62,272 nucleotides of DNA from a bacterium (GCA_028689495.1 JAQTWB010000010.1:1-62272), one strand, 5' to 3'; counted from the stretch's first letter, positions 20,363-37,767 are shown. The notes: generated by a model not told the origin, from the sequence alone. Program-made: numbers and translations.

Positions 20363-21373
20363 TCATAAATACTTTTCTTTATTTTCCTGGCAATGCGTCC
20401 GGACAACATCAACCCAGCGTTCATACCAATGCCAAGACGTGCCAGCCACAAGGGAGCCGTAGCCCTTGACAGTATTTCTTGCGTCAAGAGATTGCCAGAG
20501 TTTTGTGTGATGATGCATTAAAAAGCCCGAATATCCCTCGGATCTCATCAAATCTACAATTTGCTTTGGCAGATACTTCTTCTTTTCGGTCTCTTTGATT
20601 ATTTTGTATTCCTTGTTTACCGCCTCCGCCAAAGCCGAATCGCTTTGTACAAACTCGATAACACGATCCGCCTGGCCTTTATGATTGGCTGTTTTAGGAA
20701 CGAACAATATGCGATAGGCGTAGCGCGGATTTGAGAATTCATCGTCCGACAATTCAGTATCAAAATCTTTAATGTAACCTTGTATGTTAACTGGTAACCC
20801 GGGATGCTCCTCGAGCAGTTCCTTTTGCTCGGTCGAGATCGTTGAAAACTGTAGACTGAACGAGAGATGCCTTTCTATTCCGTTGTTGACCCCGAACAAT
20901 TTTTTGATGTACTCGTTGTAATTCAGTCCGCAGGCCTGAAAACGAGCGCTCAATATATCGTCAATTCGGGTTGTCATTTGGTGTTCAATTTCGTGCCGCA
21001 ACCCTATCAGGAATCTCAGGTTATTGGCCGTATCCTTATCAATAGGACATTTAGCATCATTCAGACAACGCTCAAGCTCCCAGTACTTGTATGCGCCATG
21101 TTTGGTTCTATCGAATTCACGACGTTTACCGCTCTGGCGGCAATATCGATACTCAATTTTTTGATCACGGAAATAGGCGTGAAGCAGATATGTCCAGGCG
21201 ATAATCATCAGCACCACATAAGATTCAGACTTGAAGCCTATGTTAGGGTTGTTAAATATCTGTACTGCTGCAAGAGCAGCCTCTCGAGACTTCTTGAGAA
21301 GTTCGCTCTTGATAGCACCGACACGCCGAAGCCGTTTGCTCATTATGCCGTCTCCTGGACCTTCTGCTGCCAC
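20363..21373 (-). CDS. Hypothetical protein with a HEPN-like Rx4H motif (GLRHEIEH). Cargo module 3, gene b.
   Basis: 336 aa. Predicted helical N-terminal region (AVQIFNNPNIGF...) and RHEIEH matching the HEPN Rx4-6H pattern. No other recognised family. Confidence 0.4.
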   Translation of the reverse strand: MAAEGPGDGIMSKRLRRVGAIKSELLKKSREAALAAVQIFNNPNIGFKSESYVVLMIIAWTYLLHAYFRDQKIEYRYCRQSGKRREFDRTKHGAYKYWELERCLNDAKCPIDKDTANNLRFLIGLRHEIEHQMTTRIDDILSARFQACGLNYNEYIKKLFGVNNGIERHLSFSLQFSTISTEQKELLEEHPGLPVNIQGYIKDFDTELSDDEFSNPRYAYRILFVPKTANHKGQADRVIEFVQSDSALAEAVNKEYKIIKETEKKKYLPKQIVDLMRSEGYSGFLMHHHTKLWQSLDARNTVKGYGSLVAGTSWHWYERWVDVVRTHCQENKEKYL

Positions 21374-22635
21374 GCCAGCACTAGGGCTTTGCTACCCCTA
21401 GCCGCCTCTTGAATAATTGTTGCTAATGCTGCTGTTTCGGCTTTGTGCGTTCCGATATAACCGGAACGGATCAAACTGAGCATGTCGGCTTCTCGGAGAT
21501 AGGTTCCATCCAACGCTTTGTAACTGAGACGAACGCCACCCTTAGGGCCTCTGGCCTCAGGGGCAGCAAGGATCTGGTTCAGATGGTCGAGAGAGACAAG
21601 AAACGATTGATGCGTATCGTCTACGATCTTGCGCTTCACAAATTTGAAGAAAAATGGATTGCGGCTCAGCCTGTAGTCACTCAAAGAACCATCAAAGTCA
21701 GGAAGTCTCATGCGGGCAATTTCATCGCGCAACTGCTTGTCAGGACGAAACAACCAATCACGGTTTTCACTCTCTTGCTTGTCTTCCTCAAGCATCTTGT
21801 ACTGGAGCATAACAATATTGCCCCGGGTTTCGTTGATGTAGATGAGGTCAACGCCCAGCATCTGCTCCAAGGGCAATTTGTTAGCGGTGTAAATCACCAG
21901 CCGTTCGTCAGCCCTTTGAAAGACGGCTCGCCCGGTCACATCAGCGGAGATCGCATCGAATCCGGGGAAGCGCAATGAATCCGAATGCACTACGTTGTCC
22001 TCAAAGAGGTGAGCTCCGATAAGACCAAGACCAGATGATGCGCCCTTCTTGAGGGTAACCTGATCCGGTATGGCACTGCCCCGAATTCCAAAAGCTGCCA
22101 TTGCCGACTTAATGGCATCCTCCTGTGCCCAGAAGGTGTTCGTCACGCGCCTCAACCGTGGCAAAAGGGAAAGAGCTGTATCCAGGGCAGATTGATTGTC
22201 GGAATCCGCCGCCAGAAGTTCGACCAGACGAACGCTGAGTTTGGGTGAGAGGCTTGTAATCGCTCCTTGAGCAGGTAGTCGTTTGCCCAGCAAACGCTTC
22301 ATTCGCGAATCAGTGAGCAACGCCTCTATCGACTGAAGAGAATTGGGGTTCAAGGCCCGCAGTTTCTTAATAGTTAGACGAGATTCGAAGGTGCTCACCG
22401 CCGCTTTTTTAGTGGCAGTGGCCATATAGCACTTGGTTGAATCACCTTCCTGCATTTCCAGCAAACAAAGCGTTGGCAGCTTGATAGCCAGAAGTACAGA
22501 ATGTGGTTTTACCAAAGTAAGGAGCTCGAACCCATGCTGCAAATTCTGGAAGGATTCAGACATAGCCTCATCGAAGCGAATCAAGATCAGGGGTTTCTTC
22601 TGAACCCATTTTGCGATCTTGACTGCTGCACTCAT
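21343..22635 (-). CDS. Hypothetical protein. Cargo module 3, gene a.
   Basis: 430-aa ORF. Its ATG overlaps the stop of the preceding junction duplicate (ATGA). No confident domain. A weak D...E.K pattern (GVDLIYINETRGNIVMLQYK) is noted only. Confidence 0.4.
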   Translation of the reverse strand: MSAAVKIAKWVQKKPLILIRFDEAMSESFQNLQHGFELLTLVKPHSVLLAIKLPTLCLLEMQEGDSTKCYMATATKKAAVSTFESRLTIKKLRALNPNSLQSIEALLTDSRMKRLLGKRLPAQGAITSLSPKLSVRLVELLAADSDNQSALDTALSLLPRLRRVTNTFWAQEDAIKSAMAAFGIRGSAIPDQVTLKKGASSGLGLIGAHLFEDNVVHSDSLRFPGFDAISADVTGRAVFQRADERLVIYTANKLPLEQMLGVDLIYINETRGNIVMLQYKMLEEDKQESENRDWLFRPDKQLRDEIARMRLPDFDGSLSDYRLSRNPFFFKFVKRKIVDDTHQSFLVSLDHLNQILAAPEARGPKGGVRLSYKALDGTYLREADMLSLIRSGYIGTHKAETAALATIIQEAARGSKALVLAWQQKVQETA

Positions 22636-23141
22636 TCGGCGACCTCCCTTGCAGCGCGTTTTTCCTTCAAACTCGGGTGGTGGTCGTTGATGCGGTCGCC
22701 GTCAAAGACGTGATACCAGGGGGCGGATGCGACGTCCTTGACATAGCAGGCTCTGAGGAAAAATGAACGAAACCAAATAAGATTAAAAAGGTAGCCAGAG
22801 TTTCTAGCTCCGGCATTCGCAACGAACCCAACAAACCGCCGCCGTATCGTAGTGTAGCCAGACCAGGATGGTCTGGCTACCATCGCGCTCGGGCCGTAGG
22901 GGGTTATTGGATTCATCAGCTCAATTCGTGGGGATACCTCAATAGCGGGCCCCGTCCGCTTTTCCGGCGCATAGTCGCCGAGAACCAGCAGTTCCGGCAT
23001 CCCCGCCTGAAGAATGGGAATGACGGCTTCCCACTGTCGCTCACGATCCGACCACAGAATACATGCAGGTGCGACCTGAGCCTCCGGGTTGAAAACTGCG
23101 GCATCGCGAATCAATTTCAGGAGATGATCAAGTACTCTCAT
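22632..23141 (-). pseudogene. Junction duplicate 2. It contains the pglZ 5' end (~200 bp, ~90% identical to 20140-20337), a ~175-bp spacer with palindromic E-elements, and a copy of the pglX 3' end (…VKDVASAPWYHVFDGDRINDHH…).
   Basis: The first 72 aa are nearly identical to the PglZ N-terminus (MRVLDHLLK.IRDAAVFNPEAQVAPACILW.DRERQWEAVIP.LQA..PELL.LGDYAP.KRTGPAI) and then diverge. The 3' 60 bp match the last 60 bp of pglX. Almost identical to 24688-25197. Confidence 0.7.
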
Positions 23142-23144
23142 ACG

Positions 23145-23681
23145 TCACGTTTCCTGTGCACTGTCTATGAGGCCATATGTTGTGGCCAGTGAATCATTAA
23201 TAACAGCTACAGAGACTGGCGAAAGTCCCCAGGTCTTTATTGTCGATCGTAAGGCTTTTAAAAGAGCATCATGCAACGGTGGCAACCATGCATCCTTATG
23301 CCCGTTGATGACCAAAACAAACTTCGCATCCGCTTGTGACAAATCGAGTTTCTTAAATTCATCGGGTAATTCCGAGGCAGCTTGCGGATGCCGTCTAAGA
23401 ATTGCTGCCCATCCCAAAGAAAAAGCATTGACGAGTTTCTCTCGGATTTCGGCAATAAAATCATCAAAGTTCGGCTGAGTTTTAGGGTGGGGCGTGCTGG
23501 ATTTAGCCTCAACAATCCAAATAACTGATTTACCGTTACTTACTTGCAACAGCAGAAATTCCGCCATCTGGACATGATCTTTAATTGCGGCATAGCAATT
23601 ACTCTTTTCTACACGAAAACAATAGCCATCCGGGTAAGGACCAAATGTCATATCAGATTCGATAATAGGTTGGGTCGTCAT
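23145..23681 (-). CDS. Hypothetical 178-aa protein. Cargo module 2, gene b (partner of the ATPase).
   Basis: The ORF overlaps the ATPase gene end by 4 nt. No recognisable motif. Confidence 0.4.
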   Translation of the reverse strand: MTTQPIIESDMTFGPYPDGYCFRVEKSNCYAAIKDHVQMAEFLLLQVSNGKSVIWIVEAKSSTPHPKTQPNFDDFIAEIREKLVNAFSLGWAAILRRHPQAASELPDEFKKLDLSQADAKFVLVINGHKDAWLPPLHDALLKALRSTIKTWGLSPVSVAVINDSLATTYGLIDSAQET

Positions 23682-24691
23682 TTGAGCGTCAACCCCACTT
23701 CTTCTTTATACAGACGAATCGACTCATCGATTATCGGGTTATCAGGCATTCCGCTCTTCAGATCAGAGGTCTCCCATTTATTAGTGGAGGATGAGATAAC
23801 AGGAATGGACACTCCCTTTTCCTGGGCCAGAAGATAGAGCTTTTTCACCACAAAATACGAGTGGCTTGCGAGAAAAAACTGAATGCCGCGCTCCGCCAGT
23901 ACGGCGATAATATCTAGCAACTCGGAGATCGCTGTCGGGTGGAGCGCCGACTCCGGTTCATCAATAAAAACAATCGAGTGGATATCCAGGTAACGGTTAC
24001 TCAGCAAGGTATCCAGAATGGCAATCTTCTTGATGCCTTCCGCTGTTACACCAATAGGAAACTTCTGATTACCCTTTTTAAACTGCCAGCGTCCTGAAAC
24101 TTCATCGTATTCAACTTTGCCGCCAAACATATCTTCCAACCGTTTTCGTGAATCGGAAAATTCCTTAAAATTTTTACCACGCTGTGGCAACTGTCTTAAC
24201 GCGCGAGTTAGATCGAGATACGTATCATCAAAGCCAAATAATTTATCCTGCTCGCGAGATTTAAGAATAATCTGATGCAGCGACAGCACCTCTTTGGCCG
24301 GCAAAAAAATAGAATTGCTGCTTCTAGGTGGGATGTGATTTTCCAGAGATGCGATCTGTTTAGTTGTGTCTTTTCTGAATTTATAGCTGAATCCGTTGCG
24401 CTCAAATTCCATCTCAAAGGACAATGATCCGTCAGCACCTTTTGTCACAAGCTCGCCAATTTTGTCGGCTTGAAAGGTCCAGTATAACTTGTCGGCAAGA
24501 ATCTCTGACGCGGACTTGAGCTCATCACCACGTTTATACTCCTCTATTGTTCGCATTGCGGAATAGAGAGCTTTTAAAAGAAACGTCTTACCTGTACTGT
24601 TGCCTCCTAAAACCAAGTTAATTTTACCTAACTGATTCCAGTGAAGGTCGGTCAAAGGTCCGAAGTTTTTGAGTCCTATCTTGTTAATCAT
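23678..24691 (-). CDS. ABC-type (AAA_21/SMC-like) ATPase. Cargo module 2, gene a.
   Basis: Walker A GGNSTGKTFLLKALY; Walker B/D-loop IVFIDEPESALHP; H-loop LASHS. 337 aa, the compact size of defence-associated minimal ABC ATPases. Its ATG overlaps the upstream stop (ATGA). Confidence 0.7.
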   Translation of the reverse strand: MINKIGLKNFGPLTDLHWNQLGKINLVLGGNSTGKTFLLKALYSAMRTIEEYKRGDELKSASEILADKLYWTFQADKIGELVTKGADGSLSFEMEFERNGFSYKFRKDTTKQIASLENHIPPRSSNSIFLPAKEVLSLHQIILKSREQDKLFGFDDTYLDLTRALRQLPQRGKNFKEFSDSRKRLEDMFGGKVEYDEVSGRWQFKKGNQKFPIGVTAEGIKKIAILDTLLSNRYLDIHSIVFIDEPESALHPTAISELLDIIAVLAERGIQFFLASHSYFVVKKLYLLAQEKGVSIPVISSSTNKWETSDLKSGMPDNPIIDESIRLYKEEVGLTLK

Positions 24692-25197
24692 AACTTCTCT
24701 CCCAAGCTATTCTTTTTATCTTCTAATTTCAGGTGGTGGTCGTTGATGCGGTCGCCGTCAAAGACGTGATACCAGGGTGCAGATTCCACGTCCTTGACAT
24801 AGCAGGCTCTGAGGAAAAATGAACGAAACCAAATAAGATTAAAAAGGTAGCCAGAGTTTCTAGCTCCGGCATTCGCAACGAACCCAACAAACCGCCGCCG
24901 TATCGTAGTGTAGCCAGACCAGGATGGTCTGGCTACCATCGCGCTCGGGCCGTAGGGGGTTATTGGATTCATCAGCTCAATTCGTGGGGATACCTCAATA
25001 GCGGGCCCCGTCCGCTTTTCCGGCGCATAGTCGCCGAGAACCAGCAGTTCCGGCATCCCCGCCTGAAGAATGGGAATGACGGCTTCCCACTGTCGCTCAC
25101 GATCCGACCACAGAATACATGCAGGTGCGACCTGAGCCTCCGGGTTGAAAACTGCGGCATCGCGAACCGCTTTCAGGAGATGATCAAGAACCCTCAT
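24688..25197 (-). pseudogene. Junction duplicate 1: pglZ 5' end, spacer with E-elements, and pglX 3'-end copy (…VKDVESAPWYHVFDGDRINDHH…).
   Basis: As for 22632-23141; the two duplicates are ~98% identical to each other. Confidence 0.7.
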
Positions 25198-25231
25198 GCG
25201 TCACCCGTCTTTGTATTGTTGAAAGTCTCAA

Positions 25232-28200
25232 TCATTCGCCCTCCTGTTCGTTTTCGGCAATAACTCGCCTAGCCTCTCGATCGTATCCCTCCGCCAAACC
25301 TCTTAAGATTGCTGCAAATCGCTGAAACCCTGCATTCTCAACTTTCTCGGCTTTAATTCGGAACTGTTCTGCGAATTCTCTCTCCGGCTTCCCGGTTGGG
25401 TCAACCCAACGAACACCGCGTGAGTTGTATATCCCCGTCCTGAAACCGGCGCGCATATTATCAGCTTCACGGTCATTTAATGCGTCAGCGACAGTGCGGT
25501 GTATCCATAATCCGTCTGGGTGCGGTGGGGTATGAATCAATACTTCGCCAATATTGCTGAGAGCAACTTCCAGGTGGCCGGACTCCGTACAGACTTCTTT
25601 TACCCTCTTGAGCCAGTCTATAAAACTCTCTTCGCTGAACGTTCCATCCTTCTGTGTTCCCGGCGGTGTCTTCCACTGATGCAGTAGCCGCCAGGCGTTT
25701 GCTGCTATCGCCTTTTTCTCCTCAGTGGGGTCTGTCAATGGCGGATCTTCATTTTTGGAACGGTAAATCAATCGAATGACCTCACAAAAGAACTCGGGGT
25801 CATTCGCCAGTCTGCTTTCAAGGAGTTGGGGCGCCGCTCCTCTATGATGGTCGAGCAAGGAAACATACGCCCACTCAACTCTAAAGAGGTCTTCTTCATT
25901 GACTGAAGGCTCTGCCTGAAGAAACTGGATCAATTCGACAATGTCGTGCTCGTCCATAACATAGCGCGGCTCATTGGAGGACAGCGCAGCAAGCAACGCT
26001 CTGACACATTGACTACTATCGATAGGTTGCTTGGCATGGCGCATCTTGTCCAGGCAGCCTATCGCCGCGTGTGGTCTGCCGTATTCAAGGAGCTTCTCAA
26101 CTGCCATCTCAAGATCACCATCAGCCTGATAGGCATTCGCGCCAGTGCGAGTCCAGTATTCTCTCTCTTTCGCCTGAAGCCATTCAGAGGCGCGATCCCA
26201 TGCTCCCCGAATAAACGGCAAACATGCCAGGAACTGTCCTACTTGTTCTGGTGACCAGTCGGATTTATCGATATCGTCGCACCACTCCCAGCCTTTGAGG
26301 AGATGACTCCGCCAGATAAAACCACTCACCAACGCCGTGTGCTTATCGTCCGCGGAATCCAGGAAGTGGGGCAAAAAGGTCCGCTCAATGATTGAGTCGG
26401 CAATAGCGCCAAGCGCGTGCCCTACCTGCCTGGGAGCAGAAACTGATTCGGCAAATCGAATCAAACCCTCCGCACAATCTTGCTGAAAAATTTCCGAAAT
26501 GGCCGTTTCACGTCGGGTATCGAGTTTCTTGCGCTGTTCCTCCCAATCGCCATCTTCTTCATAAAGATCGAAATCGCGATCCGTAAAAAGATGCTGATAT
26601 AAGTTGAACGGGTTGGTGGGGGCGAGTAGCTCAGCAACCTGTTCAATGCGGGTAATCAGCTCATCTGACAATGCCCATTTTGCATCGGAGAACCGGCGGT
26701 GTTTGTTTGTGAATTTTGCAAGATGGTCCCAAATCAAAAGTCGCTGCTCTTCGGGAAGCGCAGCGATGGGTAGGGAAGCAAGAACATCGAGTAGTTGATC
26801 AAAAGCTGATTTAGGCAGGTGATCAAAATGATCAATCAATGCAGAAAGCCTAGCGGTATCTTCACCAGCGGTCTCCACCGCAAGCTCCGCGTAAAAAGTT
26901 GCCTGCTGCCAATATTCTTGCGTCGTCACATCCCCCCAATCATCGGGGATTATCTGACGCCAAATTGGTTTGTGCGACCCAGAGGAAATCTGGCGCTGGC
27001 CGGGTAAAAGCTTATTAATCAAGTTCCATGCTATATCAGGATTCTCACGAAGAATTGTCTGCACTGCGGCTTGGCGCTTTTCAACCCCTGCCAGCGTTTG
27101 CGGAAACCAAGGAAGCAATATAGCGGTGAGCGAATTGAATGGTCGATTGTCCCAATTACCCCCCGGATCATGGCTGGCAAGGTCGGCAAGCGCAACACAA
27201 ACTCGAACGAGATATTGTTCATCCCATGCCAGCCCCTCTAACGCCCAAAGGAGGCCGGTCAGATAATTCCTTCCAAAAATCCCCCCATCCTCCTCATTGA
27301 AGAGGTCTACAAATGGACAAGAACTTTGCTTGAGCGCAAACTCGACCGCATCGAGAAATTGCGTTGGCGCCACTTCGGCCAAGATGGGTAATAAATCGTT
27401 GACGCTTCCCCATCTCTTCCAATCCGCCTCCTCGAAAAGCTCTCTTATAAACGAGGCGCAGATCGTCTCTGTCTTATCGGGCGAACACTGCTTACAAACC
27501 TCGGGGTAACTCCCAATGATGGCTAACCCTTCAGCAATACCCTTTCGCAGGTCCTTGGAGCTTTTTAATACTTTGCCATAAATGCTTGCAGCACTTCTAT
27601 CGTCAGCCGGCAGCTCAAATATGGGATCACTCTCCGTCATGATCCTCAGAGCAATGCTCCTAAAGGTATCGAGATCATTATCCAAAATACGCGACCCCAG
27701 CATCCTCCAAAGCTCAACTCGATTACCAACTTTCCAGATGCCGTTTTTGAGAGACAACGGACTATCAGGGGTGTGCAATATCTCCCGTGCCTTCTTGAGC
27801 CAGGCGTCATAACTGACACCGAGCAGTTCGGTTATTGCCTCACGGTCGCATTCACTCTTTTCGTTCCAGCTACCAATCAGGATTGCTTGTGTCAGACAGG
27901 TGGCGTCTGGGTGATGAGTCCACACACTGGAAATCTCTATTGCTTTTGGATTGGCAGTTATGTTTATATTGTTGACTGCCGCTTTAACCACAATAAGGCA
28001 AATTTCCGCCGTATATCGATCCGGATTAAAGTCCTCTTTCATTTGTTGATATGGATGAATGTAATTACGGAAATTTCTTAAGGTCTGACCGAACTGCTTA
28101 ACATCTTGCCTTACAATTCCAAGATCGTGTGCGACATTAATGAACTGCTCGAGACTCCAGTCTTTAAAGTCTTTGCTCTTTCCTCTCTGATCTTTCGGTG

Positions 28201-28471
28201 ATTGTGTTGATCTATTAAAGTCCGCAGGTTTCTTATTAGCCAATCCAATAAGTAGACCCTCTAATAGAGAGCCACAAAGTATAATGGTTGCCAGGGGCGA
28301 ATGTGGCAAACAACGCTGCGCTTCAATAAAACGTTCCTCAAGAAGACGCACGAGTTTTGGATCTAATAATGAAGATGGAAGAGACAGTTCTTCAACTGCT
28401 TCGGCAGCGTCTTTAGGTACTGGTGCAATTAGAAGGGTGTTCAGCTCTTCTTGCTTCATATTACCACTCAC
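25232..28471 (-). CDS. Large uncharacterised protein (1079 aa) with a possible N-terminal HEPN-like domain. Cargo module 1.
   Basis: The start codon shares its A with the pglX stop. The N-terminal ~170 aa carry GSLLEGLL...RNFRNYIHP (Rx6H). The remainder is W/L-rich and looks helical. No catalytic motif recognised. Confidence 0.5.
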   Translation of the reverse strand: MSGNMKQEELNTLLIAPVPKDAAEAVEELSLPSSLLDPKLVRLLEERFIEAQRCLPHSPLATIILCGSLLEGLLIGLANKKPADFNRSTQSPKDQRGKSKDFKDWSLEQFINVAHDLGIVRQDVKQFGQTLRNFRNYIHPYQQMKEDFNPDRYTAEICLIVVKAAVNNINITANPKAIEISSVWTHHPDATCLTQAILIGSWNEKSECDREAITELLGVSYDAWLKKAREILHTPDSPLSLKNGIWKVGNRVELWRMLGSRILDNDLDTFRSIALRIMTESDPIFELPADDRSAASIYGKVLKSSKDLRKGIAEGLAIIGSYPEVCKQCSPDKTETICASFIRELFEEADWKRWGSVNDLLPILAEVAPTQFLDAVEFALKQSSCPFVDLFNEEDGGIFGRNYLTGLLWALEGLAWDEQYLVRVCVALADLASHDPGGNWDNRPFNSLTAILLPWFPQTLAGVEKRQAAVQTILRENPDIAWNLINKLLPGQRQISSGSHKPIWRQIIPDDWGDVTTQEYWQQATFYAELAVETAGEDTARLSALIDHFDHLPKSAFDQLLDVLASLPIAALPEEQRLLIWDHLAKFTNKHRRFSDAKWALSDELITRIEQVAELLAPTNPFNLYQHLFTDRDFDLYEEDGDWEEQRKKLDTRRETAISEIFQQDCAEGLIRFAESVSAPRQVGHALGAIADSIIERTFLPHFLDSADDKHTALVSGFIWRSHLLKGWEWCDDIDKSDWSPEQVGQFLACLPFIRGAWDRASEWLQAKEREYWTRTGANAYQADGDLEMAVEKLLEYGRPHAAIGCLDKMRHAKQPIDSSQCVRALLAALSSNEPRYVMDEHDIVELIQFLQAEPSVNEEDLFRVEWAYVSLLDHHRGAAPQLLESRLANDPEFFCEVIRLIYRSKNEDPPLTDPTEEKKAIAANAWRLLHQWKTPPGTQKDGTFSEESFIDWLKRVKEVCTESGHLEVALSNIGEVLIHTPPHPDGLWIHRTVADALNDREADNMRAGFRTGIYNSRGVRWVDPTGKPEREFAEQFRIKAEKVENAGFQRFAAILRGLAEGYDREARRVIAENEQEGE

Positions 28472-31400
28472 TAAGTTAATTTCCTCGCATCGCCTTTTAC
28501 TTCCAGGGTCAAGTGGTGGTCGTTGATTCGGTCGCCGTCAAAGACGTGATACCAGGGTGCTGATTCAACATCCTTACCCCGGTCCTTATTCCAGTTGATG
28601 TTGGGTTTGTCGCGCAGGACGCCTGCGCCTTTCTTGCCGACATCGGGCACGCTGAGGAAGGGGCGGATGTTGAGGCGAACACCGTCGTTGAGATCGGGGT
28701 CCCAGCCGATGGGCTGTTTTTCCAGTGGTTTCCAGCGAACAAAGATGTCATAGGGCGCTTGGCCTTCGAGAATCAGCTCCAGCTTTTTCTTGAGGCTTTC
28801 TGCTGCGGCTAGGCGTTCCTGGGCTCCGTCCACTTTACTGGCGATGTCCTGTTTCTGGCGGCTGATCCAGTCGCCCAGATAGGTATATATCAGGGTTTCA
28901 AGCAGCTTGGCGTCGAGCTTGTGGTAGTTGACCAGGGCGGCGAATCCGTCTGGCAGGCCATCCCAGATGTGCCAGATGAAGGGGCGATGCTGGAACAGCT
29001 TGCAGTGCTGAGTGAAGAACTTCTCCCGCAGCCAGGTCTCCAGTGTCTTGCCCGCGTGATCGGCGCTTTTGAGCAGCGCGGCCAGGGGAACGGTAGCCAG
29101 ACCATCTTGGTCTGGACTTTCAGAAGAATTACCAGAGCTAGAAGCTCTGGCTACCTTGTAGGCGGCGGCCAGCAGGTTCAGCAGGCGGTCGGACGCAGAT
29201 GCTTCACCCCGTACCGGCGGGATGCAGACGATGCCGTCATCATCAGCGTAGCTAGATAGGCTTTCGCAGCGCTTAACCCATTCGCGCTGCTCCTCGGCCA
29301 GTTCCATGCTGGCATCCAACTCGGCAGGCCAACGGTAGCCGAGGAGTCGGGCAACTGCGACTTGCAGCACGGTAGCGTCGGTGCGCAGAGTTGAAGCGGA
29401 TTCCAACCGCTTTGTTTCTTCATTCCAAACTACCGAACCACACGGATGGCCGTGGAAGATCCATTGGGTGGGGTCGTTGGTGTAGGGTTTAGGGAGACCG
29501 TTCGGATATTTTTCTTCTGCGACTTTTGTCCAGCGGTCGAGGTCAAAGGGGACTTTTGTTATTGTCGCGGCGGTAACCTTTAATGCTTGGTCGACAGCGC
29601 GAACGTTTTCATGGAACACATCTGACTCTACATAAGCAAAAATTGCAGGAATAACATTCTCGGTAGATGGGCAAATCGGACATATGTTGTCATCGAAAGC
29701 CTCACCATTATAAAGAAATGGCTCTAACTTTCTCATTTTGTTGACAACAACGCCTCTACGACAAAAAACACTTTGACCGTGTAGGCGGCATCCAAGCTGC
29801 GTGTTTAGCTCGACATCATCTAAGGGAACTTTGCAAAGCTGTGAGCGACCAGTCCATGGATTTCCAGCATTTGGTGAGTTAAGCCAATAAACATGGGTCT
29901 TTTCGCCCTCGGGGAACTCCCAGAAGTACATCAAAAACCTTGGCCCATCCCCAGTTGTGCTTCCTTTTCCATAGTCAGCTATTTCAGCTAGTAGAGGCAG
30001 ACTTTGAAACTTTTCAAAGCCAACCCTAGCATCCGGATTCTCCAACTGCTTCGCTTGCTCAACGCTCTTGATTTCTGCCGTCCGCAGTTGCGCCGCTTTT
30101 TCGGTAGCGGTGCGGGGCTCGGAGACATCAACACCGCGAATCAGGTTAGGAGCAGCATCGTGGTGTGGCCTGTCGCCTTCAGACCAGAGCTGGAAGCTCT
30201 GGCTACCTTCTGCGCCACGGCTGAGGATGATCATTGCTACGAACGCACCCGCTGCCGCTGACGAATCAAATCCGCCTTCACCCAACCGCGCTATCAGATG
30301 CCAGGTGTCTCTCTTTAGCAGCTTCTCGCGGAATTTTTTGTAGCTGGTCAGGAAGAGCCAGTTCTGTGGCAAGACGATGCTGGACGTGCCGCCCTCAACG
30401 CAAAGTTCCAAACAGCGCTCGAGAAATACAGTCGCCAGATCGTTCTTCGCCGCCGGATAGTGTCTTTCGCAGAAATCCCTCAGTCCCTCAGTTTGCTTGC
30501 CTCGCGCCAGATATGGCACATTGGTGATGACCCAATGATATCGCTGTGCGAGCAGGGTTACAGCTTTTGCTACGCCGCGCGCTACCACGGCTGTCTCGTG
30601 ATGTTCAAAAGGAGCTTCGGCACCAACAGCCTGCTCCAACACCTGGCACACATCGTTCCAACCAAAACCAAAGTTATTTTTAGGCCCGACAAGCTCGGAT
30701 GCCTCTGTTTTGTGTGGGTCTATCAAACTTCCCAGTATAGGTGCCCGAGCAAATAGATCGTGTAGAATCCCCAGCGCTAAATATATGTTCTGCTTCCGAG
30801 CACCAAGTTGACGCCATTCCTCTCGACTCATAGTTACCGACAACCCAGAGCAGGCCAGATGAAGTTCAGGCAGCACACGGTAGCCACCGGCGTTCGGGTA
30901 TTTCCAGGCGGTCAGCGCCAGGGCAAAAGCGGCCAGCTCCACGCAACGCTGATCCAGTTCCAGACCATGGATGTTTTCCCTCAGCACCGCATCAACTGCG
31001 TCCCTGGCCGACAACCCCTCGCGCTCCATGCGCATCGGCACCAGCATCAGGAAGGCTGCCACCAGGAAATGGCCCGAACCGCAGCAGGGGTCGAGGATCT
31101 TCAGATCGGCAAGTTGCTCCGGCCAGCTGTCAAAGGTCCCAGCCGCCGGCATAAAGGTAGCCGGACCATCCTGGTCTGGCACCTCCAATCCAGCAAATTC
31201 CTCCGACCCGGGTGTTATGGTAGCCAGACCATCTTGGTCTGGCCTCTTCCAACGCCACTTCCAATCGCCCAACCCCGCTTTATCGGGGTTATCCCACGTG
31301 TACTGGATCTGAAAAAAATACTCTTTCTCAGACCTGATGATGTGGTTGTAAGCGTCTTCCTGCCATAAATGACCCTTTCGACCCAGATACTTATTGGCCT

Positions 31401-32760
31401 CATTAGCGGTGAAAGACTTCCAGGAATGTATAATTCCGGACAGCTCCCATCCTTGATGGGGCTCCACAATGACATGCACATGATTGGGCATTATGCACCA
31501 GGCGTGCAATTGATAACGCTCCCCATCAAAATAGCGCAAAGCATTAGCGACCATATCGGCAATATCCGGGTTGACGAGACAACATTCGCCAGCTCCCGAA
31601 TCCAGGAAAGCCTCAATTCGTTCGGAATAAAGGAACTGGATGCGCTTTTGCTCCTCTTCATTGAGGGGGCGATTGGCAAGGATAGCCTGATCTTCGATCG
31701 CTTTGCGTTCCGCAAACCAGGCATCACGTTTGGCAGAGGGGACCGAATCAGCAAGACGAAAACAAACATGGTAAATGGCCCGGTCGCAGGTCCAATGCGG
31801 TAAATTTTCGCCTTTTGTGATTGAGAGAGAAGTTTCGTCCAATCCCGGGATGCTGAGAAGGCCAGACCAGGATGGTCTGGCTACCTTTTCGCGGCACCGA
31901 TGCGTCTGTGGCTCGCTGGGGATGCCAGAGCTTCCAGCTCTGGCGACAACAAAACGCAGATAGTCCAGCGGCACACCGGGGATAGCCGCCTTCCGGCGCA
32001 GTTCCTCTTCGCTGCTGGCGTTTTTAAGGTCGGCTTCGCTGAGCCGTCTTGCCGCCCACCAGGCGCCCAAAGAGTTGTCGAGCAGGAAGCTGACCATATA
32101 GGGCTCGGTGAAGAGCTGGGTGACGGCAGGCAACTCCCTGCTGCCTATCTTAACTTCCGATTTGTTGATCCGTTCTTTATTGTCGGCCTGCCAGAACTGA
32201 TAGACCCAGCCCAAAGAATCCGAGGCAGTGAAAACCGGAAGCTCCAGATCCGCCACCAGGCGCTCGAGTTTTTGCTGATGCTCGGGTGGCAAGCTCAGTT
32301 GGAATACCGGCGAGTCGAGCCGGAAGATCTGCGGCAGCATGCGGGCAGCAAACCGGGCGGCCAGCTCCCAACCGTTAGCCGCGCCTTCATCGGCGGCGAG
32401 GTCTTCACACTCTTCGAGGGTGACTGCTACTGGATCGTCCGGGTCGGGATACATCAGCAGATTGTTCTCGGCCAAAAATCGCGCGAATAGCATGCGGTGC
32501 CAGTGCTCGTAGGCAACCTCTTCGATCAGGCGATCCATGGTTTGAATCTTGCTGCCATTGAGTGAATCACCCAGTTGCCGGCCGTGAACGCGCAGCTTAC
32601 GGCGCAGCTCCCGTTCCTGTTCGCTCAGGTGCGCAAAGGGCGCGGTTTCACCCACGGCAAGCTGTTCCAGCGCGGCTCGGGCAGCGTCCTCGGCAATATC
32701 ACGCGCATCTTTGATGGTGCGTTCGAGTCGGTTTCTCAATGTTTTGTCGAGCGGCTGCAT
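28471..32760 (-). CDS. pglX: BREX adenine-specific DNA methyltransferase PglX, enlarged to 1429 aa by in-frame palindromic insertions.
   Basis: Methyltransferase motif I DPCCGSGHFLVAAF and motif IV NVPY (VITNVPYLARGK). It sits between brxC and pglZ. At least six ~26-bp palindromes are inserted in frame. Confidence 0.85.
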   Translation of the reverse strand: MQPLDKTLRNRLERTIKDARDIAEDAARAALEQLAVGETAPFAHLSEQERELRRKLRVHGRQLGDSLNGSKIQTMDRLIEEVAYEHWHRMLFARFLAENNLLMYPDPDDPVAVTLEECEDLAADEGAANGWELAARFAARMLPQIFRLDSPVFQLSLPPEHQQKLERLVADLELPVFTASDSLGWVYQFWQADNKERINKSEVKIGSRELPAVTQLFTEPYMVSFLLDNSLGAWWAARRLSEADLKNASSEEELRRKAAIPGVPLDYLRFVVARAGSSGIPSEPQTHRCREKVARPSWSGLLSIPGLDETSLSITKGENLPHWTCDRAIYHVCFRLADSVPSAKRDAWFAERKAIEDQAILANRPLNEEEQKRIQFLYSERIEAFLDSGAGECCLVNPDIADMVANALRYFDGERYQLHAWCIMPNHVHVIVEPHQGWELSGIIHSWKSFTANEANKYLGRKGHLWQEDAYNHIIRSEKEYFFQIQYTWDNPDKAGLGDWKWRWKRPDQDGLATITPGSEEFAGLEVPDQDGPATFMPAAGTFDSWPEQLADLKILDPCCGSGHFLVAAFLMLVPMRMEREGLSARDAVDAVLRENIHGLELDQRCVELAAFALALTAWKYPNAGGYRVLPELHLACSGLSVTMSREEWRQLGARKQNIYLALGILHDLFARAPILGSLIDPHKTEASELVGPKNNFGFGWNDVCQVLEQAVGAEAPFEHHETAVVARGVAKAVTLLAQRYHWVITNVPYLARGKQTEGLRDFCERHYPAAKNDLATVFLERCLELCVEGGTSSIVLPQNWLFLTSYKKFREKLLKRDTWHLIARLGEGGFDSSAAAGAFVAMIILSRGAEGSQSFQLWSEGDRPHHDAAPNLIRGVDVSEPRTATEKAAQLRTAEIKSVEQAKQLENPDARVGFEKFQSLPLLAEIADYGKGSTTGDGPRFLMYFWEFPEGEKTHVYWLNSPNAGNPWTGRSQLCKVPLDDVELNTQLGCRLHGQSVFCRRGVVVNKMRKLEPFLYNGEAFDDNICPICPSTENVIPAIFAYVESDVFHENVRAVDQALKVTAATITKVPFDLDRWTKVAEEKYPNGLPKPYTNDPTQWIFHGHPCGSVVWNEETKRLESASTLRTDATVLQVAVARLLGYRWPAELDASMELAEEQREWVKRCESLSSYADDDGIVCIPPVRGEASASDRLLNLLAAAYKVARASSSGNSSESPDQDGLATVPLAALLKSADHAGKTLETWLREKFFTQHCKLFQHRPFIWHIWDGLPDGFAALVNYHKLDAKLLETLIYTYLGDWISRQKQDIASKVDGAQERLAAAESLKKKLELILEGQAPYDIFVRWKPLEKQPIGWDPDLNDGVRLNIRPFLSVPDVGKKGAGVLRDKPNINWNKDRGKDVESAPWYHVFDGDRINDHHLTLEVKGDARKLT

Positions 32761-37300: not shown

Positions 37301-37748
37301 GCCGGACACTGCCGCTCGCGCTGGCACCCAAAGTACCGGATGCCGCATGCAGGCCACCATGGCGCTTCGCCTGAGTGCTCAGTTCCTTGAAATTATCAGT
37401 AATACCTTGCGGCAGGTTGGCAATGCCGCGAGCCGTGGCTCCATCCTCAAAGGTAGTGTCGACCCAAAGCGCACGAAGCATTTTGACGAGGTGCGATTTA
37501 CCTGATCCGTAAAAACCACTAACCCAGACCGCAGGTTGCTGCGCCTGGTCGATGTTTTTGAGGTAAGTCTCGAGAATGTGCAACATTCCTTTCTCGTATT
37601 GGCCGTCACAAACGAAAGTCTCGAGCTCATACCGTAGCACCTCCAGCGCTTGGCAGGTCTTTTCGTCGTTGACGCTTGCCACCCCCTCGTTAACCAGTTT
37701 TCGGGTGGCCGGATCTTTTTGGAATATATCGCGATTATTCATCATCAT
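34308..37748 (-). CDS. brxC: BREX ATPase BrxC (PglY).
   Basis: P-loop VWVSGFYGSGKSHLVKMLRALW. About 1150 aa. Follows brxB. The start is chosen at MMMNNRDIFQKD with AAGG 3 nt upstream; the ORF extends to 37853. Confidence 0.85.
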   Translation of the reverse strand: MMMNNRDIFQKDPATRKLVNEGVASVNDEKTCQALEVLRYELETFVCDGQYEKGMLHILETYLKNIDQAQQPAVWVSGFYGSGKSHLVKMLRALWVDTTFEDGATARGIANLPQGITDNFKELSTQAKRHGGLHAASGTLGASASGSVRLALLRIIFKSAGLPEQYPVARFVMWLKHEGIYDQIRTHVEQNGLDWDEELDNFYVAEGLHDALVQAKPKLFSSPVSCVETLNNLYPYVQDISSDDMLKAIRQALMKDCKFPLTLVVLDEVQQFIGEDGQRSHDVQEAVEACSKNIGGKLIFIGTGQTAVTGTSNLKKLEGRFTVRVELSDADVDTVIRQVILAKKPEAKTPIEQIMQTNLGEISRHLAGTTIGHRQNDIQHFPQDYPILPVRRRFWENTLRVLDQTGTDSQLRNQLSMVHKVIQTKLSEPLGHVVPADYLYFDSADKLLQSRILPRKVHERTMSWIKGTEDERLVARACGLVFLINKLGSHNNEIGIRASIDSLADLLVEDLSNGSSSLRSKLPRLLDDCDLLMKVGDEYRIQTEESAAWNDEFLSQRSALSNEAHRIETERDDRIRNRFGEMVRKLSLVQGHAKVAREIHPVFDAQLPNDANQKICVWVRDGWSIDENSVRADARQAGNQSPTVFVFIPKRAADDLRRHLIYFKAASATLDNRGAPNTPEGSEARAAMETTKQTSEGKIRELLNEALSGARVFQGGGNEIVGNDLQEMILEASDNALQRLYPQFHTADHVGWAKVYEKAQKGAPDALKAVGDEGEPAKNTVCKAILGFIAGGKKGLDIRAHFDASPYGWSRDAIDGGLLVLLVAGLIRAQDERGQTLDPRELERKAISKVMFKVESATVTTAQRIQIRKLLQKVGLSAKQGEELVHVPLFLQKMLELAGQAGGEAPKPICPDTTSVDEIRRTAGNEQLLALYNRRDELCSSIDSWTDLAERIAKRWPNWIVLKRLMNHASGLQDAEVILAQVMTIEQQRLLLEDPDPVAPLLASITQLFRQELNCLQNLWKRHLDAGEQQLETDANWKQLEPEQRHALREPQGLTSQGAPQFDVADTQSILNTLDKYPLPSLRDRIAAMDGRYQSILLEAAQLLEPKSQRARLPSATLKTKEDVEKWLAQAGAALNEQIDQGPVII

Positions 37749-37767
37749 GCCTTGATTGGTTGGGCGT

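What the first reader, a model, noticed from the sequence alone, without database searches (positions are those of the whole stretch)
20363..28560. The BREX pglX–pglZ junction is repeated three times, with cargo modules nested between copies and stop/start codons overlapping at each boundary
Seen directly: the last ~60 bp of pglX (28500-28560, encoding …VKDVESAPWYHVFDGDRINDHH…stop) recur at 24720-24795 and 22670-22745. The first ~200 bp of pglZ (20140-20337, MRVLDHLLK…KRTGPAI) recur at 24985-25197 and 22925-23141. Each pglZ-5' copy is followed by a ~175-bp spacer made of palindromic mini-elements and then by the pglX-3' copy. The two duplicates are ~98% identical to each other and ~90% to the genuine ends. 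Three foreign modules sit between them: a 1079-aa protein, an ABC-ATPase plus 178-aa partner, and a 430-aa plus 336-aa pair. The first ATG of each module overlaps the stop of the preceding pglX-3'-like segment (ATGA or shared A), so all are embedded in the BREX transcript. Inference: the layout X3-cargo1-[Z5·s·X3]-cargo2-[Z5·s·X3]-cargo3-Z5 is what repeated Campbell-type integration of small circles carrying cargo plus a junction mimic (pglZ-5'·spacer·pglX-3') would produce by homology with the chromosomal junction. This would be a homology-guided way of loading accessory defence genes into a BREX operon without breaking its polarity. I do not know of a described mechanism of this kind.
Basis: partly seen in the sequence, partly recalled or inferred. 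Interest (0 to 1): 0.92.

Follow-up and report, generated by a model that had tools for sequence, protein, structure and literature searches.

The report
Stacked defence cassettes in BREX operon
Three anti-phage gene modules sit stacked between two core genes of a BREX defence operon, separated by leftover fragments of those core genes, and these fragments look like recombination scars showing how bacteria add defence genes inside an existing defence system.

Summary
A complete type 1 BREX operon on the minus strand carries three cargo modules between pglX and pglZ: a 1079-aa unknown protein, HEC-02A/B, and a 430-aa protein plus DUF3644/PDC-S19. They are separated by two 510-bp seams, each made of pglZ-5' (201 nt), a ~200-nt spacer and pglX-3' (~108 nt).

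New here:
- Each seam is an intact 169-aa ORF.
- The two seams share a 379-nt stretch that is 100% identical, with module-specific edges.
- The spacer palindromes are REP/REPIN elements cognate to a RAYT transposase inserted in frame in pglX.

In 38 distinct related BREX loci, 35 carry cargo at this junction. The same modules occur singly with the same pglX-tail/ATGA and linker-to-pglZ-ATG junctions. At least eight other distinct loci show pglZ-5' and/or pglX-3' scars.

Seam and resident pglZ-5' differ mostly at synonymous sites (dN/dS ~0.2), so they come from different functional alleles.

The best explanation is additive capture of "pglX-3'–cargo–pglZ-5'" blocks by one-sided homologous recombination between BREX loci. 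Circular intermediates are possible but neither shown nor required. Embedding of defence genes is known; these scars appear undescribed. The order across the two identical cores rests on one metagenome assembly.

The parts
28471..32760 (-). pglX (1429 aa), the BREX methyltransferase. Its last ~80 nt before the tail (28495-28575) are the genuine X3' copy.
   Evidence: PADLOC PglX, 1723.8 bits; Pfam Eco57I, N6_Mtase and MmeI_Mtase; repeat family D3.
25232..28471 (-). Cargo 1: a 1079-aa protein of unknown function. Its start is a GTG overlapping the pglX TAG by 1 nt, or an ATG at 28459.
   Evidence: No PADLOC or NCBIfam hit and only weak DUF4145. Homologs (61-76% identity) sit at the same pglX-pglZ junction in L006, L021, L032, L036 and L048. 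The same 33-34-nt linker to the pglZ ATG is present.
24688..25197 (-). Seam A, a 169-aa ORF: pglZ-5' 24997-25197, spacer 24796-24996 (REP doublet 24847-24936), pglX-3' plus a unique tail 24688-24795.
   Evidence: PADLOC finds PglZ (residues 2-68) and PglX (135-168) in the sister copy, seam B, which was the copy scanned.
23678..24691 (-). Cargo 2a: HEC-02A, an ABC-type ATPase. Its ATG overlaps the seam A stop (ATGA).
   Evidence: PADLOC HEC-02A, E=1.1e-164; Pfam AAA_21 and AAA_15; junction sequence.
23145..23681 (-). Cargo 2b: HEC-02B, the NERD-like partner.
   Evidence: PADLOC HEC-02B, E=3.6e-66. The NERD assignment comes from bioRxiv 10.1101/2024.01.29.577857.
22632..23141 (-). Seam B, a 169-aa ORF: pglZ-5' 22941-23141, spacer 22740-22940 (REP doublet 22791-22880), pglX-3' plus the canonical tail 22632-22739.
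   Evidence: Its pglX-3' plus tail is ~88-91% identical to the pglX ends of relatives (L008, L035) against 83% to the resident pglX.
22732..23110 (.). The 379-nt core that is 100% identical between seam B and seam A (24788-25166).
   Evidence: Position-by-position comparison.
21343..22635 (-). Cargo 3a: a 430-aa protein of unknown function. Its ATG overlaps the seam B stop (ATGA).
   Evidence: No family hit. It is found with the DUF3644 gene directly after pglX in L011, L012, L015, L035, L050, L053, L061, L080 and L086.
20363..21343 (-). Cargo 3b: a DUF3644 / PDC-S19 protein, with its ATG in a TAATG overlap with cargo 3a.
   Evidence: PADLOC PDC-S19, E=2.2e-168 from residue 11 of the longer ORF; Pfam DUF3644; junction.
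17992..20337 (-). pglZ (781 aa). Its first 201 nt (20137-20337) are the genuine Z5' copy.
   Evidence: PADLOC PglZ, 1068.6 bits; repeat family D1.
31157..31947 (-). REP-RAYT-REP unit inserted in frame in pglX (aa ~271-534). It is the source family of the seam palindromes.
   Evidence: Pfam Y1_Tnp; NCBIfam REP_Tyr_transpos, 67.5 bits, below the cut-off of 80; 69% identity to stand-alone RayT proteins; HUH motif and a conserved Tyr in QYTWDNP retained; flanking hairpins.
29093..29154 (-). In-frame REP doublet inside pglX (aa ~1202-1222). A further single REP lies at 30184-30206.
   Evidence: Absent from PglX relatives.
15953..17995 (-). brxL.
   Evidence: PADLOC BrxL, E=2.5e-296.
34308..39235 (-). 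brxC (34308-37853), brxB (37768-38343) and brxA (38306-39235).
   Evidence: PADLOC BrxC, BrxB and BrxA.

Best explanation
The pglX-pglZ junction of this BREX-1 clade is a recombination hotspot for defence cargo.

The movable unit is a block: pglX 3' end plus its own tail, then cargo, then a short cargo-specific linker, then the pglZ 5' end. These blocks move between diverged BREX loci because about 500 nt on each side of the junction are ~80-85% conserved.

Ordinary two-sided recombination would replace one cargo with another. Stacking happens when only one side recombines homologously and the other end joins illegitimately. This could be homology-facilitated illegitimate recombination, or the topologically equivalent single crossover of a circularised fragment. 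The result is a Z5'::X3' seam.

An existing seam presents pglZ-5' and pglX-3' in permuted order. A later linear X3'-cargo-Z5' fragment can therefore integrate there in ends-in fashion with gap repair, or a circle can integrate by a Campbell-type crossover. Either route duplicates the seam. This is the likely origin of seams A and B around HEC-02.

The REP/REPIN spacer is a lineage-specific secondary insertion from the RAYT that resides in pglX.

Shown: the architecture, the recurrence of modules and scars, the foreign origin of the flanks, and the identical core.
Inferred: the recombination pathway, the order of events, and expression by coupling to the seam ORF.
For: 1. The repeats and layout are confirmed.
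2. Of 38 distinct relatives with both gene ends on one contig, 35 carry same-strand cargo at this junction and 3 carry none. Sampled cargo are defence families: Septu, HEC-01, HEC-06, Ppl-like and PDC-M38.
3. The modules occur alone or in other combinations: cargo 3 alone (L011, L012, L015, L035, L050, L061, L080); cargo 1 alone (L032, L036, L048); c1-seam-c3 (L006); c3-seam-HEC-02 (L030); 942-aa-seam-HEC-02 (L026); c1-seam-HEC-01 (L021).
4. Each cargo keeps its own linker to the pglZ ATG whether a full pglZ or a seam fragment follows. Cargo 3 keeps the same pglX tail and ATGA overlap whether a full pglX or a seam precedes it.
5. Scars have variable breakpoints. L006 joins Z(1-120) to X3'(-100) at a ~10-nt microhomology, GGAAGCCGTC. 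L026 has Z(1-~215) plus an NNHHLTLAEK... remnant, and L030 has Z(1-~134) plus the last ~15 nt. L021 has the c1 linker fused to an FNGDGINDYH remnant. L025, L031, L073 and L083 have Z5' remnants only. L051 is the mirror image, with a pglX-3' remnant only.
6. Seam versus resident pglZ-5' in the window: 12 synonymous and 8 non-synonymous differences, dN/dS 0.19-0.21, binomial P=0.001 against neutrality.
7. X3'(A) is 97% identical to the L035 and L013 pglX ends against 88% to its own pglX. In L030 and L031 the seam Z5' is closer to other genomes' pglZ than to the resident one.
8. The flanks are conserved: ~0.75-0.85 mean pairwise identity over pglZ nt 1-780, and ~0.77-0.89 over the last ~540 nt of pglX.
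Against: - No read-level or experimental evidence exists for any recombination pathway.
- The two-seam order depends on how one assembler resolved a 379-nt exact repeat.
- Several multi-gene cargo regions have no detectable scar (for example L013, L017, L018, L028, L029). Either scars are lost quickly or other routes exist.
- The seam ORF is open in the window (P~0.014 by chance for frame plus no stop codons, my estimate), and in L006 the fusion is in frame and open (1 in 3 by chance for frame). This could mean selection on the seam itself rather than a passive scar.
- Ends-in recombination would have to use short arms, ~30 nt on one side and ~100 nt on the other.
- L006 is a 4x-coverage contig with a split brxL, so its fine detail is less reliable.
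Confidence: 0.7

Rival explanations
1. One reading: small circular DNAs, each carrying a cargo plus a ready-made junction mimic (pglZ-5'.spacer.pglX-3'), integrate one after another by single Campbell-type crossovers with the chromosomal junction.
For: The layout is exactly what such integration predicts. Recombination between the 379-nt identical cores would release precisely such a circle, [HEC-02 + seam]. The assembly graph cannot exclude that HEC-02 plus a seam exists as a circle.
Against: - Seams in other genomes have different breakpoints and no spacer, so there is no conserved mimic.
- The spacer is a lineage-specific REPIN.
- Modules clearly derive from ordinary chromosomal pglX-cargo-pglZ loci.
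- Linear one-ended recombination gives the same product.
- No replication or mobilisation function is present in the cargo.
Confidence: 0.25
2. Assembly artefact or strain mixture. The real chromosome is pglX-c1-seam-c3-pglZ, as in L006, and HEC-02 with its flanks belongs to another strain, locus or molecule that was threaded in through the exact repeat.
For: A 379-nt exact repeat exceeds usual k-mer sizes. The independent Logan assembly of the same run breaks at exactly these repeats.
Against: - The HEC-02 flanks, a pglX-3' tail upstream and pglZ-5' downstream, are confirmed at 100% identity in the independent assembly.
- HEC-02 preceded by a Z5'::X3' seam occurs in L026 and L030, which are titled chromosome-level MAG assemblies.
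- Single seams in L006, L021, L025 and L031 involve no exact repeat.
Confidence: 0.12
3. A purely intragenomic origin: tandem duplication of the junction region followed by decay, with cargo later swapped in.
For: Seam pglZ-5' copies in the window, L006 and L073 are closest to the resident pglZ. Tandem duplication at REP sequences is a known process (from my own knowledge, not checked here).
Against: - dN/dS ~0.2 between seam and resident copies is not what decay of a dead duplicate gives.
- pglX-3' copies and tails are closer to other genomes' pglX than to the resident one.
- In L030 and L031 the seam pglZ-5' is nearer to foreign alleles.
- Cargo-specific linkers and tails match single-module loci.
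Confidence: 0.08
4. The seams are selected adaptor ORFs. The pglZ ribosome-binding site and start drive a short chimeric ORF whose pglX-like stop overlaps the next cargo's ATG. This would keep translational coupling and is the reason the 169-aa frame is open.
For: Both window seams are open and the L006 seam is in frame. ATGA overlaps occur at both seam/cargo boundaries, mirroring the pglX/cargo overlaps in single-module loci.
Against: - Seams in L026, L030 and L031 carry frameshifts or stop codons.
- The two window seams share one recent core, so they count as one observation.
- The only full-length match in 5.8 billion proteins is the sister copy on this same contig, and the only other Z5'::X3' chimera is the 98-aa L006 ORF.
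Confidence: 0.15
5. RAYT/REP-mediated mobilisation. The HUH transposase embedded in pglX cuts at the REP hairpins in the seams and moves cargo as single-stranded circles.
For: REP doublets of the RAYT's own family sit in both seams and nowhere else outside pglX in 62 kb. The RAYT keeps its catalytic motifs.
Against: - None of the other seam-bearing loci has these hairpins.
- L031 has its own RAYT and REPs in pglX but none at its seam.
- The identical core extends ~230 nt beyond the REP doublet on the pglZ side but only ~58 nt on the pglX side. This fits homologous exchange, not cut-and-paste at hairpins.
Confidence: 0.05

Closest known systems
Defence genes embedded within BREX, Hma, DISARM and type I RM operons ('guilt-by-embedding', Payne et al., bioRxiv 10.1101/2024.01.29.577857; backup effectors in BREX, PMC12839542)
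   Same: Same-strand defence cargo is nested between core genes. HEC-02 and PDC-S19 are families defined by that work.
   Different: Those papers catalogue the content. How genes become embedded is left open: the word 'recombination' does not occur, and embedding is attributed to a 'genomic sink'. Duplicated core-gene fragments at module boundaries are not mentioned.
Type VI secretion effector-immunity arrays with orphan immunity genes
   Same: New modules are acquired at a conserved locus by homologous recombination plus homology-facilitated illegitimate recombination. Older genes are retained and truncated gene remnants are left behind (PMC8189183).
   Different: There the displaced effector is truncated and only the immunity genes persist. 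Here every module stays complete and in the operon, and the scar is a fusion of fragments of two different flanking core genes (Z5'::X3').
Rhs/CDI orphan toxin-immunity modules (from my own knowledge; not checked in the literature tools)
   Same: Displaced modules are reported to keep a stub of the conserved upstream gene, which serves as homology for later recombination.
   Different: As for the type VI arrays: here no module is displaced or silenced, and the scar combines fragments of two different core genes. This comparison rests on recall only.
Campbell-type integration and ends-in (gap-repair) recombination; homology-facilitated illegitimate recombination in natural transformation
   Same: Additive insertion with duplication of the homologous segment. 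One homologous anchor plus a microhomology joint: L006 shows a ~10-nt microhomology.
   Different: These are general mechanisms. Their use to stack defence cassettes inside a defence operon, with the seam acting as a reusable landing pad, was not found in the searched literature.
Integron cassette arrays
   Same: A co-oriented array of promoterless-looking cassettes separated by repeated boundary elements. Defence cassettes in integrons are known (bioRxiv 10.1101/2024.07.02.601686, listed).
   Different: No integrase is present among the ORFs between pglX and pglZ. The boundaries are fragments of host genes, not attC sites, and exchange is driven by homology.
REPIN-RAYT systems
   Same: A RAYT-family Y1/HUH transposase is flanked by its REPs, and inverted REP doublets occur nearby.
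   Different: Everything sits in frame inside coding sequence, in pglX and in the seam ORFs, rather than between genes. No copy lies elsewhere in the 62 kb.

Membership tests
BREX type 1 | brxA, brxB, brxC, pglX, pglZ and brxL are co-oriented in this order. | tested here: met
   PADLOC hits for all six genes on the minus strand between 39235 and 15953.
Embedded defence cassettes (guilt-by-embedding sense) | Extra genes nested between core genes of a multi-gene defence system, in the same orientation. | tested here: met
   Five cargo ORFs lie between pglX and pglZ, and one 533-aa ORF lies between brxC and pglX, all on the minus strand.
Embedded defence cassettes (guilt-by-embedding sense) | The cargo belongs to known or candidate defence families. 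| tested here: inconclusive
   HEC-02A, HEC-02B and PDC-S19 give strong hits. The 1079-aa and 430-aa proteins have no PADLOC, Pfam or NCBIfam family.
HEC-02 | An ABC ATPase (A) adjacent to a NERD-like partner (B). | tested here: met
   HEC-02A E=1.1e-164 and HEC-02B E=3.6e-66, with overlapping ORFs. Defence activity was not tested here.
Additive homologous/illegitimate integration scars (Campbell, HFIR or ends-in) | Direct, in-register duplicates of the host sequences that flank the insertion site bracket each added block. | tested here: met
   Three pglZ-5' and three pglX-3' copies in register.
Additive homologous/illegitimate integration scars (Campbell, HFIR or ends-in) | The same blocks exist singly at the same site in relatives, with the same junctions. 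| tested here: met
Additive homologous/illegitimate integration scars (Campbell, HFIR or ends-in) | The duplicated flanks derive from a different allele, not from local decay. | tested here: met
   dN/dS 0.19-0.21, P=0.001. The pglX-3' copies are closer to foreign pglX.
Additive homologous/illegitimate integration scars (Campbell, HFIR or ends-in) | A circular intermediate or excision product. | not testable with these tools
   This needs reads or experiments.
Integron | An IntI tyrosine recombinase next to the array. | tested here: not met
   No recombinase domain in any ORF between pglX and pglZ in the Pfam and PADLOC scans. The other BREX genes were scanned with PADLOC only.
Integron | attC sites between cassettes. 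| not tested
   The boundaries are recognisably pglZ and pglX fragments plus REPs. No attC model was run.
Orphan-module arrays (type VI, Rhs, CDI) | Sequential acquisition leaving truncated copies of a conserved flanking gene. | tested here: met
Orphan-module arrays (type VI, Rhs, CDI) | Displaced modules are incomplete or orphaned. | tested here: not met
   All five cargo ORFs are intact with coupled starts.
REPIN-RAYT | A RAYT-family Y1 (HUH) transposase. | tested here: met
   Pfam Y1_Tnp 30.2 bits, above the cut-off of 23. 69% identity to proteins named RayT. HUH motif and a conserved Tyr present. NCBIfam equivalog 67.5 bits, below the cut-off of 80.
REPIN-RAYT | The RAYT is flanked by REPs, and inverted REP doublets occur elsewhere. 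| tested here: met
REPIN-RAYT | Extragenic location and genome-wide dispersal. | tested here: not met
   All copies are in frame within pglX or the seam ORFs, and none lies elsewhere in 62 kb. The rest of the genome is not available.

The most novel reading that the evidence does not exclude
Z5'::X3' seams are more than scars. Once formed, a seam would be a recombinase-independent landing pad that turns the BREX pglX-pglZ junction into a cassette-capturing and cassette-shedding platform. Any pglX-cargo-pglZ fragment from another BREX locus could be added there in register. Recombination between the repeats could delete modules cleanly while restoring intact pglX or pglZ. The open seam ORF would keep translational coupling. 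In this lineage the RAYT/REPIN system living inside pglX might further stimulate exchange at the seams.
Probability: 0.15. Interest if true: 0.85.

Novelty: new variant of a known kind. Interest (0 to 1): 0.62.

Why it matters
Embedding of defence systems inside other defence systems is now used to discover new immunity genes, but how cargo gets there is an open question. These seams are physical footprints of the process. They show that modules travel with the ends of pglX and pglZ as homology arms. They show that stacking rather than replacement occurs, and that the events leave datable scars.

This makes the question testable in two ways. One is a scan for core-gene fragments at module boundaries in BREX, Hma, DISARM and type I RM loci. 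The other is transformation experiments.

It also has three practical uses:
- It delimits cargo modules precisely.
- It flags two recurrent uncharacterised cargo genes (1079 aa and 430 aa) as defence candidates.
- It warns annotators that short pglZ-N/pglX-C "hypothetical proteins" are seam products.

Tried and rejected
1. I tested whether the 169-aa ORF is a protein family. The only full-length hit among 5.8 billion proteins is the sister copy on this same contig; the 98-aa L006 ORF is the only other Z5'::X3' chimera. The other short hits with a PglZ N-terminus are contig-end truncations or frameshifted or decaying pglZ, for example L001-L005.
2. Loci reported as matching unit residues 1-162 (L009, L020, L033, L039, L042, L045, L072) are the native pglX-3' then pglZ-5' order with little or no cargo. 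They are not seams.
3. I considered that the REPs bracket the PglX specificity region and might swap it. This is rejected: the variable region is aa ~660-1080, one REP lies inside it, and the REP doublet lies in a conserved stretch.
4. I looked for the palindromes as a genome-wide REP family. None lies outside pglX and the seams in 62 kb, and none occurs in L001-L035. My first pattern, had the wrong spacing.
5. A promoter scan of the region gave no excess over shuffled sequence and no site in the seams.
6. The parts of the spacer outside the REPs match nothing in the window or the loci.
7. I looked for a similar seam at the brxC-pglX junction and found none.
8. Exact-protein look-ups of pglX and the 1079-aa protein, intended to find alternative assemblies, found nothing on record.
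9. Literature searches for a described mechanism found none. The terms were "between pglX and pglZ"; BREX with embedded and partial duplication; RAYT with BREX. The library holds open-access PMC and bioRxiv only.

Full report
**What is in the window**

The minus strand carries a complete type 1 BREX system. PADLOC identifies BrxA (38306-39235), BrxB (37768-38343), BrxC (34308-37853), PglX (28471-32760), PglZ (17992-20337) and BrxL (15953-17995).

Seven co-oriented ORFs lie between pglX and pglZ:
- a 1079-aa protein with no family assignment (25232-28471);
- a 169-aa ORF (24688-25197);
- HEC-02A (23678-24691) and HEC-02B (23145-23681);
- a second 169-aa ORF (22632-23141);
- a 430-aa protein with no family (21343-22635);
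- a DUF3644/PDC-S19 protein (20363-21343).

**Check of the observation**

The repeats are as described. The first 201 nt of pglZ recur at 22941-23141 and 24997-25197. These copies are 90-91% identical to the genuine one and 97.5% identical to each other. A ~70-nt core of the pglX 3' end (KDVESAPWYHVFDGDRINDHH) recurs at 22659-22739 and 24715-24795.

- After the conserved pglX-3' core, each copy has its own divergent tail of 13-14 codons.
- Each pglZ-5'/spacer/pglX-3' unit is one open 169-aa reading frame.
- The two units share an exact 379-nt core (22732-23110 = 24788-25166). They differ only at their outer edges.
- The stop/start overlaps are ATGA or TAATG at four boundaries. The 1079-aa gene instead starts at a GTG sharing one base with the pglX TAG, or at an ATG 12 nt downstream.

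**What the spacer is**

The spacer palindromes come in two hairpin types: GGTAGCCAGACCATCCTGGTCTGGCTAC and GGTAGCCAGAGCTTCTAGCTCTGG. In the seams they form an inverted doublet. The same hairpins occur at four places inside pglX and nowhere else in the 62 kb, nor in L001-L035.

Two pairs of hairpins flank a ~260-aa in-frame insertion in PglX (aa ~271-534). This insertion is a RAYT-family Y1/HUH transposase, on the following evidence:
- Pfam Y1_Tnp is above its cut-off.
- It is 69% identical to stand-alone proteins named "REP element-mobilizing transposase RayT".
- The HUH motif and a conserved Tyr are retained.
- The NCBIfam equivalog score is below its cut-off.

The spacer is therefore a REP/REPIN insertion of a family resident in this pglX. 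It is not part of a conserved junction mimic. As single-stranded DNA it folds better than shuffled controls (z = -2.97). One hairpin followed by a T-run scores as terminator-like.

**Relatives**

A protein search with the 169-aa ORF found its sister copy and one other chimera, P0080. The contig carrying P0080, L006, reads pglX - 1179-aa homolog of cargo 1 - [pglZ(1-120)::pglX-3'(last ~100 nt)] - 431 aa - DUF3644 - pglZ - brxL. It is collinear with the window at ~71-77% nucleotide identity but lacks HEC-02, the second seam and the spacer. The fusion point in L006 is a ~10-nt microhomology.

Scans of genome and metagenome collections gave 83 further loci, L007-L089. Of the fetched loci, 64 have both gene ends on one contig, and these collapse to 38 distinct loci. 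Of the 38, 35 carry same-strand cargo at this junction and 3 carry none. Sampled cargo are known or candidate defence systems: Septu, HEC-01, HEC-06/GmrSD-like, Ppl-like and PDC-M38.

The window's modules recur singly or in other orders:
- cargo 3 alone (L011, L012, L015, L035, L050, L061, L080);
- DUF3644 alone (L027);
- cargo 1 alone (L032, L036, L048);
- cargo 3 followed by HEC-02 (L030);
- a 942-aa gene followed by HEC-02 (L026);
- cargo 1 followed by HEC-01 (L021).

**Scars elsewhere**

Where modules are stacked, leftovers of the core genes lie at the boundary.

| Locus | What lies at the boundary |
|---|---|
| L026 | pglZ(1-~215) plus a pglX tail remnant (..NNHHLTLAEKHTAVREHN) directly before HEC-02A |
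| L030 | pglZ(1-~134) plus the last ~15 nt of that tail |
| L021 | the cargo 1 linker fused to a pglX-3' remnant (FNGDGINDYH..) before HEC-01 |
| L025/L069/L070, L031, L073, L083 | pglZ-5' remnants only |
| L051, and by homology L055 | mirror image: a pglX-3' remnant retained next to pglZ after a small inserted gene |

L026 and L030 are records titled as single chromosomes. From this I infer that their seams are not short-read artefacts. Several multi-gene cargo regions show no scar, so scars are either lost over time or not always made.

**Blocks move with their flanks**

Each cargo type keeps a characteristic short linker to the pglZ ATG, whether a full pglZ or only a seam fragment follows. 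For cargo 1 this holds in the window, L006, L032, L036 and L048. For DUF3644 it holds in the window, L006, L011, L012, L015, L027, L061 and L030.

The 90 nt upstream of the 430-aa gene in seam B, including the GCCGAATGAGTGCAGC overlap, match the pglX ends of loci carrying only cargo 3.

The pglX-3' copy in seam A is 97% identical to the pglX ends of L035 and L013, against 88% to the resident pglX. The copy in seam B, with its tail, is 91% identical to L008 against 83% to the resident pglX.

The seam pglZ-5' differs from the resident pglZ-5' by 12 synonymous and 8 non-synonymous changes. This gives dN/dS of 0.19-0.21, with P=0.001 against neutral expectation. Comparisons between functional pglZ genes give 0.07-0.12. 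The two copies therefore diverged while both were parts of working genes. In L030 and L031 the seam copy is closer to foreign pglZ alleles than to the resident one.

Roughly 500-800 nt on each side of the junction are conserved at ~0.75-0.89 mean pairwise identity across relatives. This provides homology arms.

**Most likely mechanism**

Blocks of the form pglX-3'+tail - cargo - linker - pglZ-5' are exchanged between BREX loci through the conserved flanks. Two-sided exchange replaces cargo. If only one side recombines homologously and the other end joins illegitimately, the block is added instead. A single crossover of a circularised fragment gives the same product. Either way a Z5'::X3' seam is left, with variable breakpoints and microhomology at the joint.

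A seam presents the two arms in permuted order. A later linear X3'-cargo-Z5' fragment can therefore integrate at the seam in ends-in fashion with gap repair, or a circle can integrate by a Campbell-type crossover. Both routes duplicate the seam.

This accounts for the 379-nt identical core with module-specific edges around HEC-02. Later gene conversion between two seams would give the same pattern. The architecture, recurrence and allele origins are shown. The pathway and the order of events are inferred.

**Rivals**

- *An assembly or strain-mixture artefact.* This could explain only the double seam. The independent Logan assembly of the same run confirms the flanks of HEC-02 and cargo 3 at 100% identity but breaks in the repeats, so read-level confirmation is needed.
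- *Local duplication followed by decay.* dN/dS and the foreign affinities argue against it.
- *RAYT-mediated mobilisation.* This is unlikely because other seams lack REPs. L031 has its own RAYT and REPs in pglX but none at its seam.
- *Selection on the seam ORF as a translational adaptor.* This remains open. The window and L006 seams are in frame, while the L026, L030 and L031 seams are broken.

**Comparison with what is known**

Embedding of defence genes in BREX and other systems is described and has been used for gene discovery. HEC-02 and PDC-S19 come from that work, which leaves the route of embedding open. A 2026 survey of BREX diversity reports embedded effectors but does not mention transposases or such scars.

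The closest analogue of the process is the growth of type VI effector-immunity arrays by homologous plus homology-facilitated illegitimate recombination (PMC8189183). Rhs and CDI orphan modules are similar, but that comparison rests on my own knowledge. The case here differs in that all modules stay complete and in the operon, and the scar fuses fragments of two different core genes.

I found no paper describing this for BREX. The searchable library holds open-access papers and preprints only.

**Verdict**

I file it as a new variant of a known kind: additive module stacking by one-sided homologous recombination, here inside a defence operon. Interest is moderate to high, mainly because it makes the question of how defence systems become embedded directly testable.

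Noticed in passing
window 31157-31947 (also 29093-29154 and 30184-30206); L031 1790-2527, 4184-4543: A RAYT-family HUH transposase with its flanking REPs is inserted in frame in pglX, and further REP or REPIN copies sit in frame elsewhere in the gene. L031 has a 37%-identical RAYT at the same PglX site with its own, different REP doublets, again inside pglX. A search of 1.84 billion representatives found roughly ten clusters in which one aligned stretch spans PglX N-part, RAYT and methyltransferase start; most keep the PNHVH motif. No paper in the searched library links RAYT or REPIN with BREX.
   Followed up: partly
PglX site after ..LDYLRFV (window aa 271); L007, L019, L081, L074: The same PglX position holds other in-frame, palindrome-flanked inserts in relatives. 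L007, L019 and L081 have a ~130-aa domain that by eye resembles DUF559/Vsr-like endonucleases (..RRQHPVGRYILDFYC..ELDGGQH..; not scanned against a family library). L074 has a solo palindrome remnant. PglX length ranges from 1087 to 1429 aa. The site looks like a permissive loop that collects small selfish elements.
   Followed up: partly
window 32770-34371 (-): A 533-aa Schlafen/AlbA_2 + HATPase_c_4 + Fic-like-C protein is embedded between brxC and pglX. No duplicated core-gene fragment lies at that junction. Several relatives carry other cargo there, including an HEC-02A-like ATPase in L008, L028, L041, L067 and L081.
   Followed up: partly
window 25232-28471 and 21343-22635 (-): Two uncharacterised cargo genes recur at the BREX junction. 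The 1079-1179-aa family is present in at least 6 loci. The 430-aa protein accompanies DUF3644/PDC-S19, which PADLOC files as a single-gene candidate, in at least 10 loci; DUF3644 also occurs alone in L027 and without the 430-aa gene in L023. Both proteins are candidates for new defence components.
   Followed up: partly
window 24850-24870 and 22794-22814 (-): In each seam one REP hairpin is followed by TACCTTTTTA and scores as an intrinsic-terminator-like site on the coding strand. It could attenuate or stabilise transcripts between modules.
   Followed up: no
window 39818-41527, 15145-15816, 12716-13867 (-): The BREX operon sits in a wider defence island: an HEC-05/GmrSD-like protein upstream, and an Mrr-like type IV restriction enzyme and SoFic downstream.
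   Followed up: no
L051 745-1270 (and L055 979-1491): The cargo here is a small palindrome-flanked gene that by eye resembles the four-helix-bundle (23S rRNA intervening-sequence type) proteins; it was not scanned against a family library. It is followed by a retained pglX-3' remnant abutting the pglZ ATG, which is a mirror-image seam.
   Followed up: partly
L067 8239-8472: pglX is reduced to a fusion of its first ~50 and last ~30 codons, an almost complete internal deletion that keeps both ends, in an otherwise intact BREX locus.
   Followed up: no
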